Source: Naegleria gruberi (Eukaryota). Taken from it: a stretch of 64,000 bases of DNA. Positions 19,235-23,214 of this stretch are shown here, piece after piece. The position numbers and the translations under genes were made by a program. The stretch lies in the NCBI GenBank assembly GCA_000004985.1, contig GG738883.1; one strand, given 5' to 3'. Every line of letters begins with the position of its first letter. The first letter of the stretch is position 1. Below the pieces are notes generated by a model that was given only the letters and a program-made list of their open reading frames with translations, did no database searches and had not been told where the DNA came from.

Positions 19235-22200
19235 ATGCATGTTTGGCTTTTTTTGATCCTCTTACTCTCGCTGAGTTTGCTGGTTCGTTTTTCAACGTCG
19301 GCCACATCATCAACCACATCACAGTATTCCTCTTCTTCCTTCGTTTCATTTCTTAACAATCGAATATATAATCAAACTAATTATTATCCGAAACGATTTA
19401 TTCAATTCTCTGAACATGAAACTACTCATGATCATATTAAAAGACAACAATCACAGTTGTCATCATTAGAATCGCCACCATCATCATCTATAAACAAAAT
19501 TGATTTTAATGACTATAGTTTCCTACTAACTAATAATCAAAACTATACTTCCGATTATCCATATATTTCTCCATTCAATTCCACCTATTCTTTACCACCT
19601 TGCTGTACTACCCTAAACGGAAATGAAAATGCCCTATTCGAAACTAAAAAGCTATTAAACATGGCTAAAAACACAAAACGAATTGAAATGGAAAAATGCA
19701 GAAATGCAGCACTTGATAGTATATTCGGATTGGATTGTGTTGTCATTGAATTGGAATATATATTGGAGAATTCGACGAGTTCTGAACTGAGGAGGAATTC
19801 AGTGAATGGTTCAATGGAAAGTATTCGAAATGAAACTGTTTATTCATCACTTGATGAAATATATCAAGTATTTAAAAGAGATGTGACGATAATTGCTGAG
19901 AGAGAAAATCAAAAATCAGCATTTTCGTATAAAAAGATTCCTGAGGGAATTATTTCACTGAGAGTACGTGTCTTGTCAGATATGGTGAACGAGGAAAATT
20001 GTACTCTTCAAATGGATATTGGACAAATATTCAATTCATCATCGATTAGAAGACCTATTGCAGATTATAAGGTATTCTTTGAATTGTACAGTGAAAATCA
20101 AAGACATGAATTATATTGCAGAGTTAATGTTGATAGTTCTCTGTTTTTTTCAACATTTAGAGGATTGACTTTACGTTTGGTAACACATAATTTGAGTTAT
20201 TATGCAGAAAGGGTGACATTTCTTAGTGGAGCACTAAATGGAGGATTATTTGCTGTTTATTCACAGGTGGAATTGAGGCAGAATATACTCTTTTCACAAA
20301 CACGTGTTACTTTATTTGAAGAATTGAATTATTTTGGACAAAATTGGATTCTTCAAAGAGATAATTCAAATAATATTAATGCAATTTTTGTAGATAGTAA
20401 TATGACAGTGTATTTCGAAGACGTTCTTAAAGGAAGAAATATGTGGTTTCTGAATACAACTTTAGAGATTGATAGTGAGTTTTTGATTGAGGAAGTGAAT
20501 GAAATTTTGATTCACAAATGTACTATCAAATCGAAAGGAAATACTTCGGATAGAGATTTTGCAAACTTGCAAATATCATTTGCGAATATTGTTGAAATTC
20601 ATAGTACAGTATTCGAAACAGTAAATGGAAAGACCATTTTAGGAATTGGTGAAAGTATTGATGTCAACCTCATTGATACACATTTCACTGATCATAGAAA
20701 TGAAGCTGGCTCTCTAATTTACATGAAGAATCTAAGAAATTTGGTGATTTCCAAATCTCATTTTTTGAGGAATTGGGTTGGTTCAAGTGTTCTCTTCCTC
20801 AGTAACATAATTGCGGGTTTTATTAGTGATTGTAGATTTGAAGAAAATGAATCTGTTATATCAAATGGTATAATCTTCGTTCAATCTGCTGGATCTTTCA
20901 AAAGGGTGCTGATTAGCTCATCTATTTTTATTAGAAACAGAGCGTATGATCGTGGAGGATGCATTCATGCCTCTGATACTTCAGTTCACGTTCACTTTAG
21001 TGAATTTCGTGAAAATTATGCTCCTTCAGGAAGTGCTATCTATGCACAAGAAACAGAGCTCTCAATTGAAAGCTGCAATTTTATTGATAATTATTCAGAG
21101 ATGAGTGGTGGAGCTATTTTTATTAATGGCAATTTCAGTAGTGTTAATTCAAACTTTTACAATAACTCTGTGAATTTGAAATCAAATTATCCATGCACGT
21201 CATATTGCAGTGGAAGTGGAGGAGCCATTTCGTATGCATCTACAGAATTAGATACAATTCAGCTCTTTCTTGTTGATTCCAAATTCGAGAATAATAGTGC
21301 TATTAGAGGTGGAGCTCTCTCTATCAAGTACCTATCCAATACTCCAAAAATTACTTGGGAATCCGTCAAGATTTATAATAATTATGCCAAATCTGGAGGT
21401 GGAATATTTTTCTTTGAATTGATTGACAACAAAATTCTATCATCCACATTCGAAAGAAATAGAGCTGACTTTTATGGAAATGACATGGCTTCTTCCACTA
21501 GGTCAATTGAGTGGAATATTATGGGAAAATCACCAAATTCTCAAATAAGTGTGTTCCCAGGGCAGACTTTTTCCCTCAAGACATTTACTAAGGATTATTT
21601 CGGAGCTAATATTGGAGATTTGTGGGAGTATTATATTTTGACTGTGAATGATACACGATTTAATTTAAAAAAACCCACTCAAACTAATCGAAATGACACC
21701 ATTGAGGGTTTGTTCATTTACAGTACAAAGATTCAAACTGAGCCAACATATATTCGGTTGTGGATTGATTTTTCACAATCCTTTAGTTATTTGGATATTC
21801 TAGTTAAGGGGTGTCCTGAGAATTATGAATTGATTTCTGCTAATTATGGATCAGAAAATTCCTATATTTGTCAAGCTGTGCCAAGTGTAACTGTTATTAT
21901 TATAACAGTTGTTGTTTCTTCATTTGTTGCATTTTCAGTCTTTGTTATTGTTTCTACAATTTTGGGATATGCCATTTTCAGATTAACAAAAAAGCTCTTA
22001 TATTGGAAAGAAAGAATTAAGGTGGAGAAGGATGTAGAAAAGAGACTATTCGAAAGTGGAATAAGGTGTACGAAAGAGGAAATCAAAGCATCAGGCGAGT
22101 ATAGTCTTGCAAGAAAAAATGTTTTCATTATTGGTCTTGATCAGGTTCACATTGAAAAGAAAATTGGAGAAGGTAAGTGTATCATTCAACGCATGTTTCT

Positions 22201-23214
22201 AATAACCTATTATTAGGAGGAGCTGGTTTCGTTTACAAAGGAAAGTGGAATCACAACACAGTTGCCATCAAATGTCTAAGAGTGGAGGGATCAGAAAGCG
22301 AATTTCTCAGTGATGAAATTGAGAGAGAGGCAACCCATTTGTCTAAACTCAGACATCCGAATGTACTCATGTTCTACGGTATTTCTGTAACTCCACAAAA
22401 ACACTATTTGATTATTGAATATTTGGAAAAGGGAAGTTTGGAAAATTTAATAATTGAAAGTAGGAAACATTCATTATTGAATTTGGAAATGAAATTGTCA
22501 ATCCTAATTGACATTGCATGTGGAATGGAATATTTACACTCTTCACATATTATTCATCGTGATCTCAAGAGTGGCAATGTTCTCCTTGACGCCAACAATG
22601 TTGCAAAGGTTTGTGACTTTGGATTGAGTAAGATCATGTCCAATTCATGTCAACATTCAACTATTGCTAATGTGGGCACGATTTATTTCATGGCCGTGGA
22701 ATTATTTTCTGAAAAACTGAGCTCCTCCACTGTCATTACACCAGCCATTGACGTTTATAGTTTTGGAATTATTATGCATGAGCTCTTTTTCGAGGAACGT
22801 CCCTACAATCTCTCAAAGAATAGCAAATTATTAATGTGGAAGAATGAGCAAGAGACAATCACATCTCCATTCGCAATGCTACCAAGAATTATCAAAGGAG
22901 AAAGACCCTTCATTCCATTTGAGGATGATTATAGTATGGATGAGTATTTGCAAATGGCTGTACCTGAATATCGTCGAATGAATAATTCTAGTTTGGTGTC
23001 CTTGATCAAGATGGAAAAGTACAGACAAGTTGTAACAGATTATATTGAACTAATGACCAAGTGTTGGAGTGGAGAGCCAACAGCTCGTCCCAATTTCACA
23101 ACTGTCAATGAAACTCTCCAATCTATGAAACGTAAATTGAAAGAAATTGGAAAACATGACGAGCAAGTAAGTGGTTACAAAAAGTTGGTGGACGTAGAAC
23201 TGGAAATGAAGTAA
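19235..23214 (+). CDS. receptor-like Ser/Thr protein kinase with beta-helix (GGA[IL] repeat, PMP-like) ectodomain, 2 exons (19235..22172, 22217..23214)
   Basis: Signal peptide. About 900-aa ectodomain with repeated GGAIF/GGALS/GGGIF/GGAIS motifs typical of parallel beta-helix (PMP-type) repeats. TM segment VTVIIITVVVSSFVAFSVFVIV. A 44-nt GTAAGT...TTAG intron splits the kinase Gly-loop IGEG|GAGFVY. HRDLKSGNVLLD and DFGLSK are present. Confidence 0.85.

What the first reader, a model, noticed from the sequence alone, without database searches (positions are those of the whole stretch)
19235..23214. Second receptor-like kinase with a parallel beta-helix (GGA[IL]-repeat, chlamydial PMP-like) ectodomain; intron splits the ATP-binding Gly loop
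The ~900-aa extracellular part has repeated GGAI/GGAL/GGGI motifs and FxxN-like spacing, characteristic of right-handed beta-helix autotransporter / PMP repeats. A single TM helix and an active-looking kinase (HRDLKSGN, DFG) follow. The 44-nt intron falls between the two glycines of IGEG|GAGFVYKG. Without splicing the track gives two ORFs, with the kinase appearing to start at a spurious Met.
Basis: partly seen in the sequence, partly recalled or inferred. Interest (0 to 1): 0.5.

Follow-up and report, generated by a model that had tools for sequence, protein, structure and literature searches.

The report
Naegleria receptor kinase with beta-helix ectodomain
This is a two-exon gene of the amoeba Naegleria gruberi for a single-pass membrane protein that joins a bacterial-adhesin-like beta-helix on the outside to a Raf/MLK-like protein kinase on the inside: a real but uncharacterised receptor-like kinase whose public gene model is wrong at both ends.

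Summary
Window 19235-23214 (+) is Naegleria gruberi gene NAEGRDRAFT_70310. A 44-nt GTAAGT...TAG intron (22173-22216) joins a 993-aa ORF to a 345-aa ORF, giving a 1311-aa protein. It has a signal peptide, an ectodomain of about 860 aa, one TM helix and a catalytically intact TKL kinase.

The splice rebuilds the GxGxxGxV loop. A 90-nt intron sits at the same position and phase in the N. fowleri homologue. Two other 43-nt introns of the same class lie in the window.

There is no autotransporter barrel, so it is not a chlamydial-type Pmp. The PMP repeats cover only about aa 510-745.

The public model (1103 aa) starts at internal M143, so it has no signal peptide. It also removes a false 32-nt "intron" that truncates the kinase.

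The protein belongs to a small Naegleria family: at least 3 N. gruberi paralogues, one N. fowleri member and one environmental member. An analogous PMP-TM-kinase occurs in Protostelium.

Ligand and function are inferred only. This is a new variant of a known kind, of modest interest.

The parts
19235..22172 (+). Exon 1: start codon to the first base of codon G980. Encodes the signal peptide, ectodomain, TM, juxtamembrane segment and kinase beta1 up to KKIGE-G.
   Evidence: ORF list; spliced translation; family conservation upstream of the public model's M143.
22173..22216 (+). 44-nt phase-1 spliceosomal intron: GTAAGT 5' site, TTCTAAT branch-like motif, TTAG 3' site. If retained, an in-frame stop follows 12 codons after G980.
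   Evidence: Same position and phase as the 90-nt intron in N. fowleri locus L002 7176-7265. Same class as the 43-nt introns at 17082-17124 and 33688-33730.
22217..23214 (+). Exon 2: rest of the kinase domain, C-terminal tail and TAA stop.
   Evidence: The C-terminus aligns with paralogue P0002 and N. fowleri P0153 through CWxxxPxxRPxF.
19235..19303 (+). Signal peptide (aa 1-23, MHVWLFLILLLSLSLLVRFSTSA).
   Evidence: Kyte-Doolittle window maximum 2.14 at the N-terminus. Paralogue P0002 also starts with a hydrophobic segment. No dedicated signal-peptide predictor was available.
19304..19618 (+). Ser/Thr/Asn-rich, poorly conserved region (aa 24-128), predicted disordered. It ends with the conserved YISPFxxxYxLP motif.
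   Evidence: AF2 pLDDT below 50; alignment A1.
19619..20143 (+). N-terminal alpha/beta domain (aa about 129-303) of unknown fold family, specific to the Naegleria family.
   Evidence: AF2 pLDDT 65-87 with helices and strands. No Pfam or PDB sequence match.
20381..21451 (+). Right-handed parallel beta-helix (aa about 383-739), with roughly 13 rungs of three short strands.
20762..21469 (+). PMP-type repeats (aa about 510-745): FxxN followed by GGA[ILV]-like tetrapeptides, including a conserved Cys pair C654/C658.
   Evidence: Motif positions and shuffles; Chlam_PMP 29.7 bits and TIGR01376 34.6 bits; alignment A1.
21452..21883 (+). Membrane-proximal Ig-like beta-sandwich 'stalk' (aa 740-883). Carries the family-invariant motifs W760, FPGQxFxL, D787/F789 of the KDxFGN motif, C860-P861, A869/Y871 of the ANYG motif and I878-C879.
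   Evidence: AF2 pLDDT 55-93, mostly above 80. Foldseek matches of 113-122 aligned columns to Rib, contactin Ig and SbsC domains (prob 0.98-0.99, E about 1e-2). Invariant columns. Absent from the Protostelium analogue.
21887..21979 (+). Single transmembrane helix (within aa 885-915), followed by a K/R-rich stretch.
   Evidence: Hydropathy maximum 2.87.
21980..22144 (+). Juxtamembrane segment with the family-conserved YWxxRxxAEKDxEKRLxE motif (aa 923-940).
   Evidence: Alignment A1.
22145..23109 (+). Protein kinase domain (aa 971-1277, interrupted by the intron). Motifs: GEGGAGFV 978-985, K998, E1017, HRDLKSGN 1093-1100, DFG 1113-1115, AVE 1139-1141, CWSGEPTARPNF 1262-1273. A C-lobe insert lies at about aa 1180-1255.
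   Evidence: Pfam PK_Tyr_Ser-Thr 1.7e-53 and Pkinase 1.2e-49; motif positions; PDB best hits CTR1, B-Raf and ZAK.
22960..22991 (+). 32-nt stretch (GTACCT...TCTAG) that the public model XP_002674570 removes as an intron. Argued here to be coding (VPEYRRMNNSS).
   Evidence: The public protein ends ...DEYLQMA|FGVLDQDGKVQTSCNRLY. The unspliced frame aligns with the paralogues (xEY motif) and keeps kinase subdomain XI. Coordinates.

Best explanation
Window 19235-23214 (+) is the two-exon Naegleria gruberi gene NAEGRDRAFT_70310. It encodes a 1311-aa type I single-pass receptor-like protein kinase.

Shown here (architecture):
- A signal peptide.
- A disordered S/T-rich stretch.
- A family-specific alpha/beta domain.
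- A right-handed parallel beta-helix of about 350 aa, whose C-terminal rungs are PMP-type FxxN/GGA[ILV] repeats.
- An Ig-like stalk with conserved cysteines.
- One TM helix.
- A conserved juxtamembrane motif.
- A TKL-group (Raf/CTR1/MLK-like) kinase with every catalytic motif intact and a Ser/Thr-type HRDLKxxN loop.
- A 44-nt phase-1 intron that interrupts the codon of the second Gly of GxGxxG.

Inferred (mechanism): the beta-helix is exposed on the cell surface, or in the lumen of phagosomes. There it acts as a binding module, as in PMP-type adhesins of Chlamydia, trichomonads and methanogens. Likely ligands are a glycan or protein on bacterial prey, on the substratum or on other cells, or another copy of itself. 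Ligand-driven clustering or dimerisation would bring the cytoplasmic kinase domains together for trans-autophosphorylation. That signal would go to cytoskeletal or phagocytic machinery, as proposed for Entamoeba TMKs and Dictyostelium VSK/DRK kinases (from my own knowledge).
For: Gene structure:
- Searches give the ORFs and the intron sequence.
- One Pfam kinase alignment spans the junction.
- N. fowleri has a 90-nt intron at the identical position and phase with an unrelated sequence.
- The GEGGxGVV junction is conserved in the homologues.
- Two other 43-nt GTAAGT...CTAA...AG introns lie in the window.

Identity:
- 100% match to N. gruberi XP_002674570.

Gene ends:
- Conservation upstream of M143 and through the supposed second intron.

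Ectodomain:
- Chlam_PMP and TIGR01376 score above their cut-offs.
- Motif enrichment: 0 of 5000 shuffles reach the observed count.
- phmmer finds 3825 relatives, the non-family ones matching aa about 470-750 many times each.
- The profile hits carry PF02415/PF13229.
- AF2 gives pLDDT 87.6 and pTM 0.84.

Topology:
- Hydropathy and the basic residues after the TM.
- Conserved ectodomain Cys pairs.

Kinase:
-.

Adhesin analogy:
- PMC2997323 (the motifs mediate adhesion).
- PMC11166332 and PMC10715098 (the repeats correspond to beta-helix coils).
- PMC6701047 (trichomonad Pmp-like proteins have a TM anchor and a role in adherence).
Against: - No transcript evidence for this gene was available. The exact 1311-aa product is not in the 15-billion-protein collection.
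- No ligand, localisation or kinase activity has been tested.
- Many of the closest beta-helix folds are glycan-degrading enzymes rather than adhesins.
- The activation-loop APE is AVE, and the C-lobe carries a long insert of unknown effect.
- The signal peptide and TM rest on hydropathy only.
Confidence: 0.8

Rival explanations
1. There are two independent genes and no splicing. One is a membrane-anchored PMP-like surface protein ending 12 codons into the 'intron'. The other is a separate cytosolic kinase.
For: Without splicing the sequence does read as two ORFs. An automated ENA model of the N. fowleri homologue (P0004) stops at GEGKS. No cDNA was available for this gene.
Against: The downstream ORF has no ATG before the kinase core. 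It also lacks beta1 and half of the Gly loop, which are encoded in exon 1; one Pfam alignment spans the junction. The intron position and phase are conserved in N. fowleri with different length and sequence. The intron-less homologues P0002 and P0098 read straight through GEGG/GQGG.
Confidence: 0.03
2. The beta-helix is a catalytic glycan depolymerase, lyase or epimerase tethered to the membrane. The kinase would report or regulate substrate processing rather than simple ligand binding.
For: Top structural neighbours include GH87 alpha-1,3-glucanases, K1 lyase, RbmB, PL6 alginate lyases, AlgE4/AlgG and polygalacturonases.
Against: Sequence-level relatives are PMP-repeat / 'outer membrane repeat' proteins, not CAZyme families. 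No glycosidase or lyase Pfam or NCBIfam family is hit. The beta-helix fold is shared by adhesins (Vag8 and PfbA). No catalytic-residue comparison was possible.
Confidence: 0.1
3. The protein is an endomembrane or phagosomal kinase, with its 'ectodomain' facing the vesicle lumen, as reported for Dictyostelium VSK3. It would sense phagosome content rather than the external medium.
For: The topology is equally compatible. Naegleria is a bacterivore. That TKL receptor-like kinases of Dictyostelium (drk/VSK) are vesicle-associated comes from my own knowledge and was not checked here.
Against: No sorting-motif analysis or localisation data exist. This is a variant of the main explanation rather than an alternative to the architecture.
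Confidence: 0.25
4. The gene is a decaying or unexpressed paralogue (pseudogene) of the better conserved NAEGRDRAFT_80827.
For: Only one database entry and one contig exist for it, and no exact transcript-derived protein was found. Paralogue P0002 is also seen in Logan and ENA assemblies.
Against: The 3.9-kb reading frame is intact. All catalytic and family-invariant residues are kept. The splice signals are canonical.
Confidence: 0.05

Closest known systems
Naegleria paralogues and orthologue: N. gruberi NAEGRDRAFT_80827 (P0002) and NAEGRDRAFT_76450 (P0016, partial), N. fowleri FDP41_011595 (P0153)
   Same: Collinear over nearly the whole length (37-40% identity with P0002 and P0153). They share the N-terminal domain, PMP beta-helix, stalk motifs, TM, the juxtamembrane YWxxRxxAEKDxEKRLLE motif and a TKL kinase with a C-lobe insert. 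N. fowleri shares the Gly-loop intron.
   Different: All are uncharacterised 'predicted/hypothetical proteins'. P0002 is encoded as one uninterrupted ORF on a Logan contig, and environmental P0098 has no Gly-loop intron.
Chlamydial polymorphic membrane proteins (Pmp; PF02415 / TIGR01376)
   Same: Repeated FxxN and GGA[ILV] tetrapeptides that form the rungs of a right-handed beta-helix exposed on the cell surface (PMC11166332, PMC10715098). The motifs mediate adhesion in Chlamydia (PMC2997323).
   Different: No Pmp middle domain and no C-terminal autotransporter beta-barrel. This is a eukaryotic type I membrane protein with a kinase, and only about 8 repeats.
Trichomonad Pmp-like surface proteins (PMC6701047)
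   Same: Eukaryotic proteins with FxxN/GGA[ILV] repeats that lack the middle and autotransporter domains and are anchored by one C-terminal TM helix. They are implicated in adherence.
   Different: Trichomonad proteins have short cytoplasmic tails with endocytic motifs and no kinase. No Naegleria-type N-terminal domain or stalk is reported there.
Protostelium nocturnum transcript EP01117_P014323 (P0146)
   Same: PMP repeats (Pfam 28.5 bits), then a TM, then a protein kinase in the same order. One collinear BLAST alignment covers 777 columns.
   Different: 25% identity. The beta-helix runs up to the TM with no Naegleria stalk motifs, the juxtamembrane segment is different, and the kinase has a tyrosine-kinase-like HRDLAVRN loop. 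It is probably an independent fusion.
Protist receptor-like TKL kinases: Entamoeba histolytica TMKs and Dictyostelium drk/VSK (own knowledge, not tested here)
   Same: Single-pass receptor-like kinases with a TKL-type catalytic domain in phagocytic amoebae, linked to phagocytosis and growth sensing.
   Different: The ectodomains are unrelated (CXXC-rich in Entamoeba). No sequence comparison was run here.
Raf/CTR1/MLK kinases (TKL group)
   Same: These are the best solved relatives of the kinase domain: CTR1 E 1.4e-39, B-Raf about 1e-32, ZAK/MLT 7.5e-31.
   Different: They are cytosolic MAP3K-type kinases without TM or ectodomain. The Naegleria kinase has a C-lobe insert of about 70 aa and AVE in place of APE.

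Membership tests
Chlam_PMP / POMP repeat (PF02415, TIGR01376) | HMM score above the curated cut-off. | tested here: met
   On the ectodomain fragment, PF02415 scores 29.7 bits (cut-off 20.6) and TIGR01376 34.6 bits (cut-off 15). The full-length protein scores only 19.4 bits. All 5 family members hit PF02415, best 4.6e-13.
Chlam_PMP / POMP repeat (PF02415, TIGR01376) | Multiple paired FxxN and GGA[ILV] tetrapeptides at rung-like spacing. | tested here: met
   Five pairs at aa 565-728, about 25-30 aa apart, plus degenerate copies. Expected count 0.04; 0 of 5000 shuffles reach the observed count.
Chlamydial Pmp autotransporters (type V secretion) | C-terminal autotransporter beta-barrel and Pmp middle domain. 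| tested here: not met
   The Pfam scan at E<=1 lists neither domain. The C-terminal half is a TM helix plus a kinase.
Right-handed parallel beta-helix (pectin-lyase-like fold) | Stacked three-strand rungs, with structural similarity to solved beta-helices. | tested here: met
Eukaryotic protein kinase superfamily (active) | GxGxxGxV, VAIK Lys, alphaC Glu, HRD, catalytic Asn, DFG, subdomain XI Arg. | tested here: met
   Pfam 1.7e-53 and 1.2e-49; all motifs located. APE is AVE. Activity itself cannot be tested with these tools.
TKL group (Raf/MLK-like) | Closest similarity to TKL kinases; HRDLKxxN together with CWxxxPxxRPxF. | tested here: met
   The top PDB hits are CTR1, B-Raf, ZAK/MLT and C-Raf. 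No kinome-wide phylogeny was done.
Conventional tyrosine kinases | HRDLAARN/HRDLRAAN catalytic loop. | tested here: not met
   The loop is HRDLKSGN. Dual specificity cannot be excluded.
Receptor-like kinase (type I single-pass) | Cleavable signal peptide, one TM helix, cytoplasmic kinase. | tested here: met
   There are two hydrophobic segments only (aa 1-24 and about 876-918), and K/R-rich sequence follows the TM. This is hydropathy only; SignalP and TMHMM were not available.
Receptor-like kinase (type I single-pass) | Ligand-dependent activation. | not testable with these tools
   Requires biochemistry or cell biology.
Plant/animal IRAK-Pelle RLKs | Kinase domain groups with IRAK/Pelle. | tested here: inconclusive
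   Plant RLKs appear among word-indexed hits at about 1e-22 to 1e-27. Solved-structure ranking favours Raf/CTR1/MLK. There is no phylogeny.

The most novel reading that the evidence does not exclude
A PMP-type beta-helix module, whose nearest relatives outside the Naegleria family include archaeal, bacterial and unplaced metagenomic 'outer membrane repeat' proteins, was captured by a heterolobosean ancestor. It was fused to a TKL kinase, creating a lineage-specific receptor that recognises bacterial prey or biofilm glycans and triggers phagocytic signalling. The Protostelium PMP-TM-kinase would then be a convergent second invention of the same sensor design.
Probability: 0.15. Interest if true: 0.55.

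Novelty: new variant of a known kind. Interest (0 to 1): 0.3.

Why it matters
Receptor-like kinases outside plants and animals are poorly described. How free-living and pathogenic amoebae such as N. fowleri sense prey and surfaces is largely unknown.

This gene gives a concrete, testable receptor family conserved between N. gruberi and N. fowleri. Its adhesin-type ectodomain is otherwise known from bacterial pathogens, methanogens and trichomonads.

Practically, the public model XP_002674570 needs two fixes. It lacks the signal peptide (142 aa are missing), and a false 32-nt intron truncates the kinase. As it stands, it would mislead surface-proteome and kinome surveys.

Tried and rejected
Searches that fell short:
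- The search for homologous proteins with the ectodomain returned only the gene itself. With family alignments it never returned the Naegleria paralogues, apparently because of the word index. The paralogues came from the exhaustive phmmer search instead.
- The full-length Pfam scan put Chlam_PMP just below threshold. This was resolved by scanning the ectodomain fragment and the family members.
- The afdb50 fold library was unavailable.
- PDB sequence searches with the ectodomain profile, the N-terminal domain and the stalk found nothing significant.
- An exact look-up of the 1311-aa product and of the unspliced ORF found no transcript-derived copy. A look-up of P0002 as a gene failed. Its Logan twin P0151 gave contig L001, which cannot be classed as cDNA or genomic.
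- Tests for paralogous ectodomains elsewhere in the window found none. The other kinase, at 36252-42494, has an unrelated ectodomain.
- Literature searches for Naegleria receptor or transmembrane kinases, PMP in Naegleria and the locus tags found nothing relevant.

Readings rejected:
- Chlamydial-type autotransporter: there is no barrel or middle domain.
- Two separate genes.
- Low-complexity, unstructured ectodomain: only aa 24-128 and about 303-380 are low-confidence.

Left open:
- Orthology with the Protostelium protein was judged unlikely.
- Lateral transfer of the beta-helix was considered but cannot be resolved. The best non-family hits are unnamed metagenomic proteins, and one of them lies on a contig with BIR and LRR genes.
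Full report
**What is in the sequence**

Region 19235-23214 (+) contains two ORFs, 19235..22216 (993 aa) and 22177..23214 (345 aa). Removing 22173-22216 joins them into one 1311-aa ORF reading ...HIEKKIGEGGAGFVYKGKWNHNTVAIKC.... The removed stretch is 44 nt: GTAAGTGTATCATTCAACGCATGTTTCTAATAACCTATTATTAG.

Exon 1 is 979 codons plus one base. The intron is therefore phase 1 inside codon G980, the second Gly of GxGxxG. A single Pfam kinase alignment (PK_Tyr_Ser-Thr, E 1.7e-53, profile positions 1-229) runs from aa 971 in exon 1 across the junction. 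The window has 33% G+C. The protein is 100% identical to Naegleria gruberi XP_002674570 / NAEGRDRAFT_70310 / UniProt D2VMY8, a 'predicted protein'.

**Is the intron real?**

No transcript data could be reached. The exact 1311-aa product is not in the protein collection. The comparative evidence is nevertheless strong.

- The N. fowleri homologue has GGAGAAG|GTAAGT...TATTAG|GTGGATGTGGA. This is FDP41_011595, P0153; its genomic locus L002 came from an ENA assembly.
- That is a 90-nt intron (L002 7176-7265) at the same nucleotide position and phase, with an unrelated sequence and an in-frame stop.
- The automated ENA model of that locus stops at GEGKS, whereas the NCBI model splices to GEGGCGVVY.
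- Within the window, two other introns of the same class can be inferred from ORF junctions. One is 17082-17124 (43 nt) in the GH31 gene; it joins ...FIMWNND|HDNQPHMNLYGSHPFF.... The other is 33688-33730 (43 nt).
- All three have GTAAGT, a CTAA-type branch-like motif 12-15 nt before the AG, and a length of 43-44 nt.
- The intron is not universal in the family. The environmental homologue P0098 (contig L004) reads straight through the Gly loop.
- Paralogue P0002 is likewise one uninterrupted ORF on Logan contig L001. I could not tell whether that contig is cDNA or genomic.

**The gene's ends**

The public model (1103 aa) uses the same Gly-loop intron but differs in two places.

- It starts at internal M143. 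The family alignment shows conservation upstream of that point: YISPF(N/D)xxYxLP, aligned with the N-terminus of P0002. Only the 19235 start provides an N-terminal hydrophobic signal-like segment.
- It removes 22960-22991 (32 nt, GTACCT...TCTAG). This shifts the frame and ends the protein at ...QMAFGVLDQDGKVQTSCNRLY.
- The unspliced frame instead aligns with P0002 and P0153 through VPEY/VQEY/MPEY. It continues to the kinase subdomain XI motif CWxxxPxxRPxF.

**Ectodomain**

Motif evidence:
- Five GG[AGC][ILVMF] tetrapeptides lie at aa 574-725.
- There are five F/IxxN...GGAx pairs about 25-30 aa apart.
- Expected counts are 0.06 and 0.04, and 0 of 5000 shuffles reach the observed values.

Family-model evidence:
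- On the full-length protein, Pfam Chlam_PMP is marginal (19.4 vs 20.6 bits).
- On the ectodomain fragment it scores 29.7 bits, and NCBIfam TIGR01376 POMP_repeat scores 34.6 bits against a cut-off of 15.
- All five family members hit PF02415, best 4.6e-13.

Homologue evidence:
- An exhaustive phmmer search of 1.84 billion representatives found 3825 relatives at E<=1e-3.
- Apart from four Naegleria-type proteins, these are long repeat proteins matching aa about 470-750 many times each.
- A family profile hit 37 proteins down to E 3.6e-35. Almost all carry precomputed PF02415, many with PF13229 Beta_helix. Named ones include Methanobrevibacter proteins and 'predicted outer membrane repeat protein'.

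Structure prediction:
- AlphaFold2 on aa 24-885 gave pLDDT above 90 for aa 403-723, with regular three-strand rungs.
- A trimmed model (aa 383-885) reached mean pLDDT 87.6 and pTM 0.84.
- Foldseek agreed, with tailspikes at probability about 1.0.

Other parts of the ectodomain:
- C-terminal to the helix, aa about 740-883 form a beta-sandwich.
  - It matches Ig-like domains (Rib, contactin Ig, SbsC; 113-122 aligned columns, prob 0.98-0.99, weak E about 1e-2).
  - It carries the family-invariant motifs FPGQxFxL, D787/F789, C860-P861 and I878-C879.
- Residues 24-128 and about 303-380 are low-confidence.
- Residues about 129-303 form an alpha/beta domain with no detectable relatives.
- No autotransporter barrel or Pmp middle domain is present.

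**Membrane topology and kinase**

Hydropathy finds only two hydrophobic segments, aa 1-24 and about 876-918. The second is followed by FRLTKKLLYWKERIK. Conserved Cys pairs in the ectodomain (C654/C658, C860/C879) fit an extracytoplasmic location; this is inference.

The kinase has G978xG980xxG983xV, K998, E1017, HRDLKSGN 1093-1100, DFG 1113-1115, AVE in place of APE, and CWSGEPTARPNF 1262-1273. A C-lobe insert is shared with its paralogues. The best solved relatives are Arabidopsis CTR1 (1.4e-39), B-Raf (about 1e-32) and ZAK/MLT (7.5e-31), i.e. the TKL group. The catalytic loop is of the Ser/Thr type.

**Family and distribution**

Full-architecture relatives are the following:
- N. gruberi NAEGRDRAFT_80827 (40% identity over 1214 columns).
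- NAEGRDRAFT_76450 (partial).
- N. fowleri FDP41_011595 (37%).
- One environmental fragment.

Among the 150 best ectodomain hits, the only other kinase-bearing protein is a Protostelium nocturnum transcript (P0146) with PMP repeats, a TM and a kinase. It is collinear with the Naegleria protein. However, it lacks the Naegleria stalk and juxtamembrane motifs and has an HRDLAVRN loop. I read it as an analogous, probably independent, fusion.

No paper in the searchable library mentions any of these loci or PMP-type receptor kinases in Naegleria.

**How it most likely works**

The architecture is shown. The mechanism is inferred.

- PMP repeats form the coils of a surface beta-helix (PMC11166332, PMC10715098).
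- In Chlamydia the FxxN/GGA[ILV] motifs mediate adhesion (PMC2997323).
- Trichomonad Pmp-like proteins have the same repeats on a single TM anchor and contribute to adherence (PMC6701047).

I therefore propose that the Naegleria ectodomain is a binding module and that clustering activates the TKL kinase by trans-phosphorylation. The ligand could be a glycan or protein on prey bacteria, on the substratum or on other cells, or another copy of the protein itself.

Rivals:
- A catalytic glycan-active beta-helix is suggested by many structural neighbours but by no sequence family.
- A phagosomal rather than plasma-membrane location is possible.
- Two separate genes, or a pseudogene, are both unlikely.

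**Verdict**

This is a lineage-specific receptor-like kinase that is already in the databases as an uncharacterised, mis-modelled 'predicted protein'. It is a new variant of a known kind (modular protist RLKs; eukaryotic PMP-like surface proteins). It is of modest interest, mainly as a candidate surface sensor shared with N. fowleri and as an annotation correction.

Noticed in passing
window 36252-42494 (+) and downstream to about 42830: A second receptor-like kinase with an unrelated ectodomain. By eye it has NHL-like repeats, then about ten Cys-rich EGF-like repeats, a long unassigned region, a TM and a kinase. The ORF stops inside a 70-nt intron (42441-42510, GTATGT...TTCTAAC...TATAG) that splits GTPLFM|SPE, and the kinase continues in another frame.
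   Followed up: partly
window 17082-17124 and 33688-33730 (+): Two 43-nt introns of the same class as the one in the finding (GTAAGT, CTAA-type branch-like motif, AG). The first joins GH31 alpha-glucosidase ORFs 16507..17085 and 17078..19144. The second joins ORFs 32022..33716 and 33700..34926.
   Followed up: partly
window 22960-22991 and 19235-19660: The public model XP_002674570 (1103 aa) removes a 32-nt false intron, which truncates the kinase before subdomain XI. It also starts at internal M143, so it lacks the signal peptide.
   Followed up: yes
window 23226-24977 (-): The convergent neighbour 12 nt downstream is a 583-aa ORF with a long N/Q/S-rich low-complexity N-terminus. By eye its C-terminal half looks like a Nudix hydrolase of the Dcp2 decapping type (GKINQNEKETTCAAREVYEECG). 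This was not tested with any tool.
   Followed up: no
L001 (Logan ERR1078381 contig, 4506 nt): Paralogue NAEGRDRAFT_80827 is encoded as one uninterrupted 1213-codon ORF, with no Gly-loop intron on this contig. The contig starts with an Illumina adapter remnant and carries a convergent ORF 30 nt after the stop. It is unclear whether it is cDNA or genomic.
   Followed up: partly
L003 8001-12722 (ENA ERZ21788760 contig): P0005, one of the best non-family beta-helix relatives (phmmer E 1.3e-43; its Pfam Chlam_PMP hit is 1.1e-53), sits on a 44-kb contig. Neighbours include a BIR-domain gene, an LRR_8 gene and many ORFans. This suggests a eukaryotic or giant-virus origin rather than a bacterial one.
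   Followed up: no
P0146 (Protostelium nocturnum transcript EP01117_P014323): An amoebozoan protein with the same order of PMP repeats, TM and kinase, but with a tyrosine-kinase-like HRDLAVRN loop and no Naegleria stalk. It is a possible convergent design.
   Followed up: partly
L004 1891-1904 (ENA ERZ27315067 contig): The environmental family member P0098 lacks the Gly-loop intron. Its ORF breaks after GTLFYMV, with the kinase continuing in the next called gene. This suggests an intron at a different site in the activation segment.
   Followed up: no
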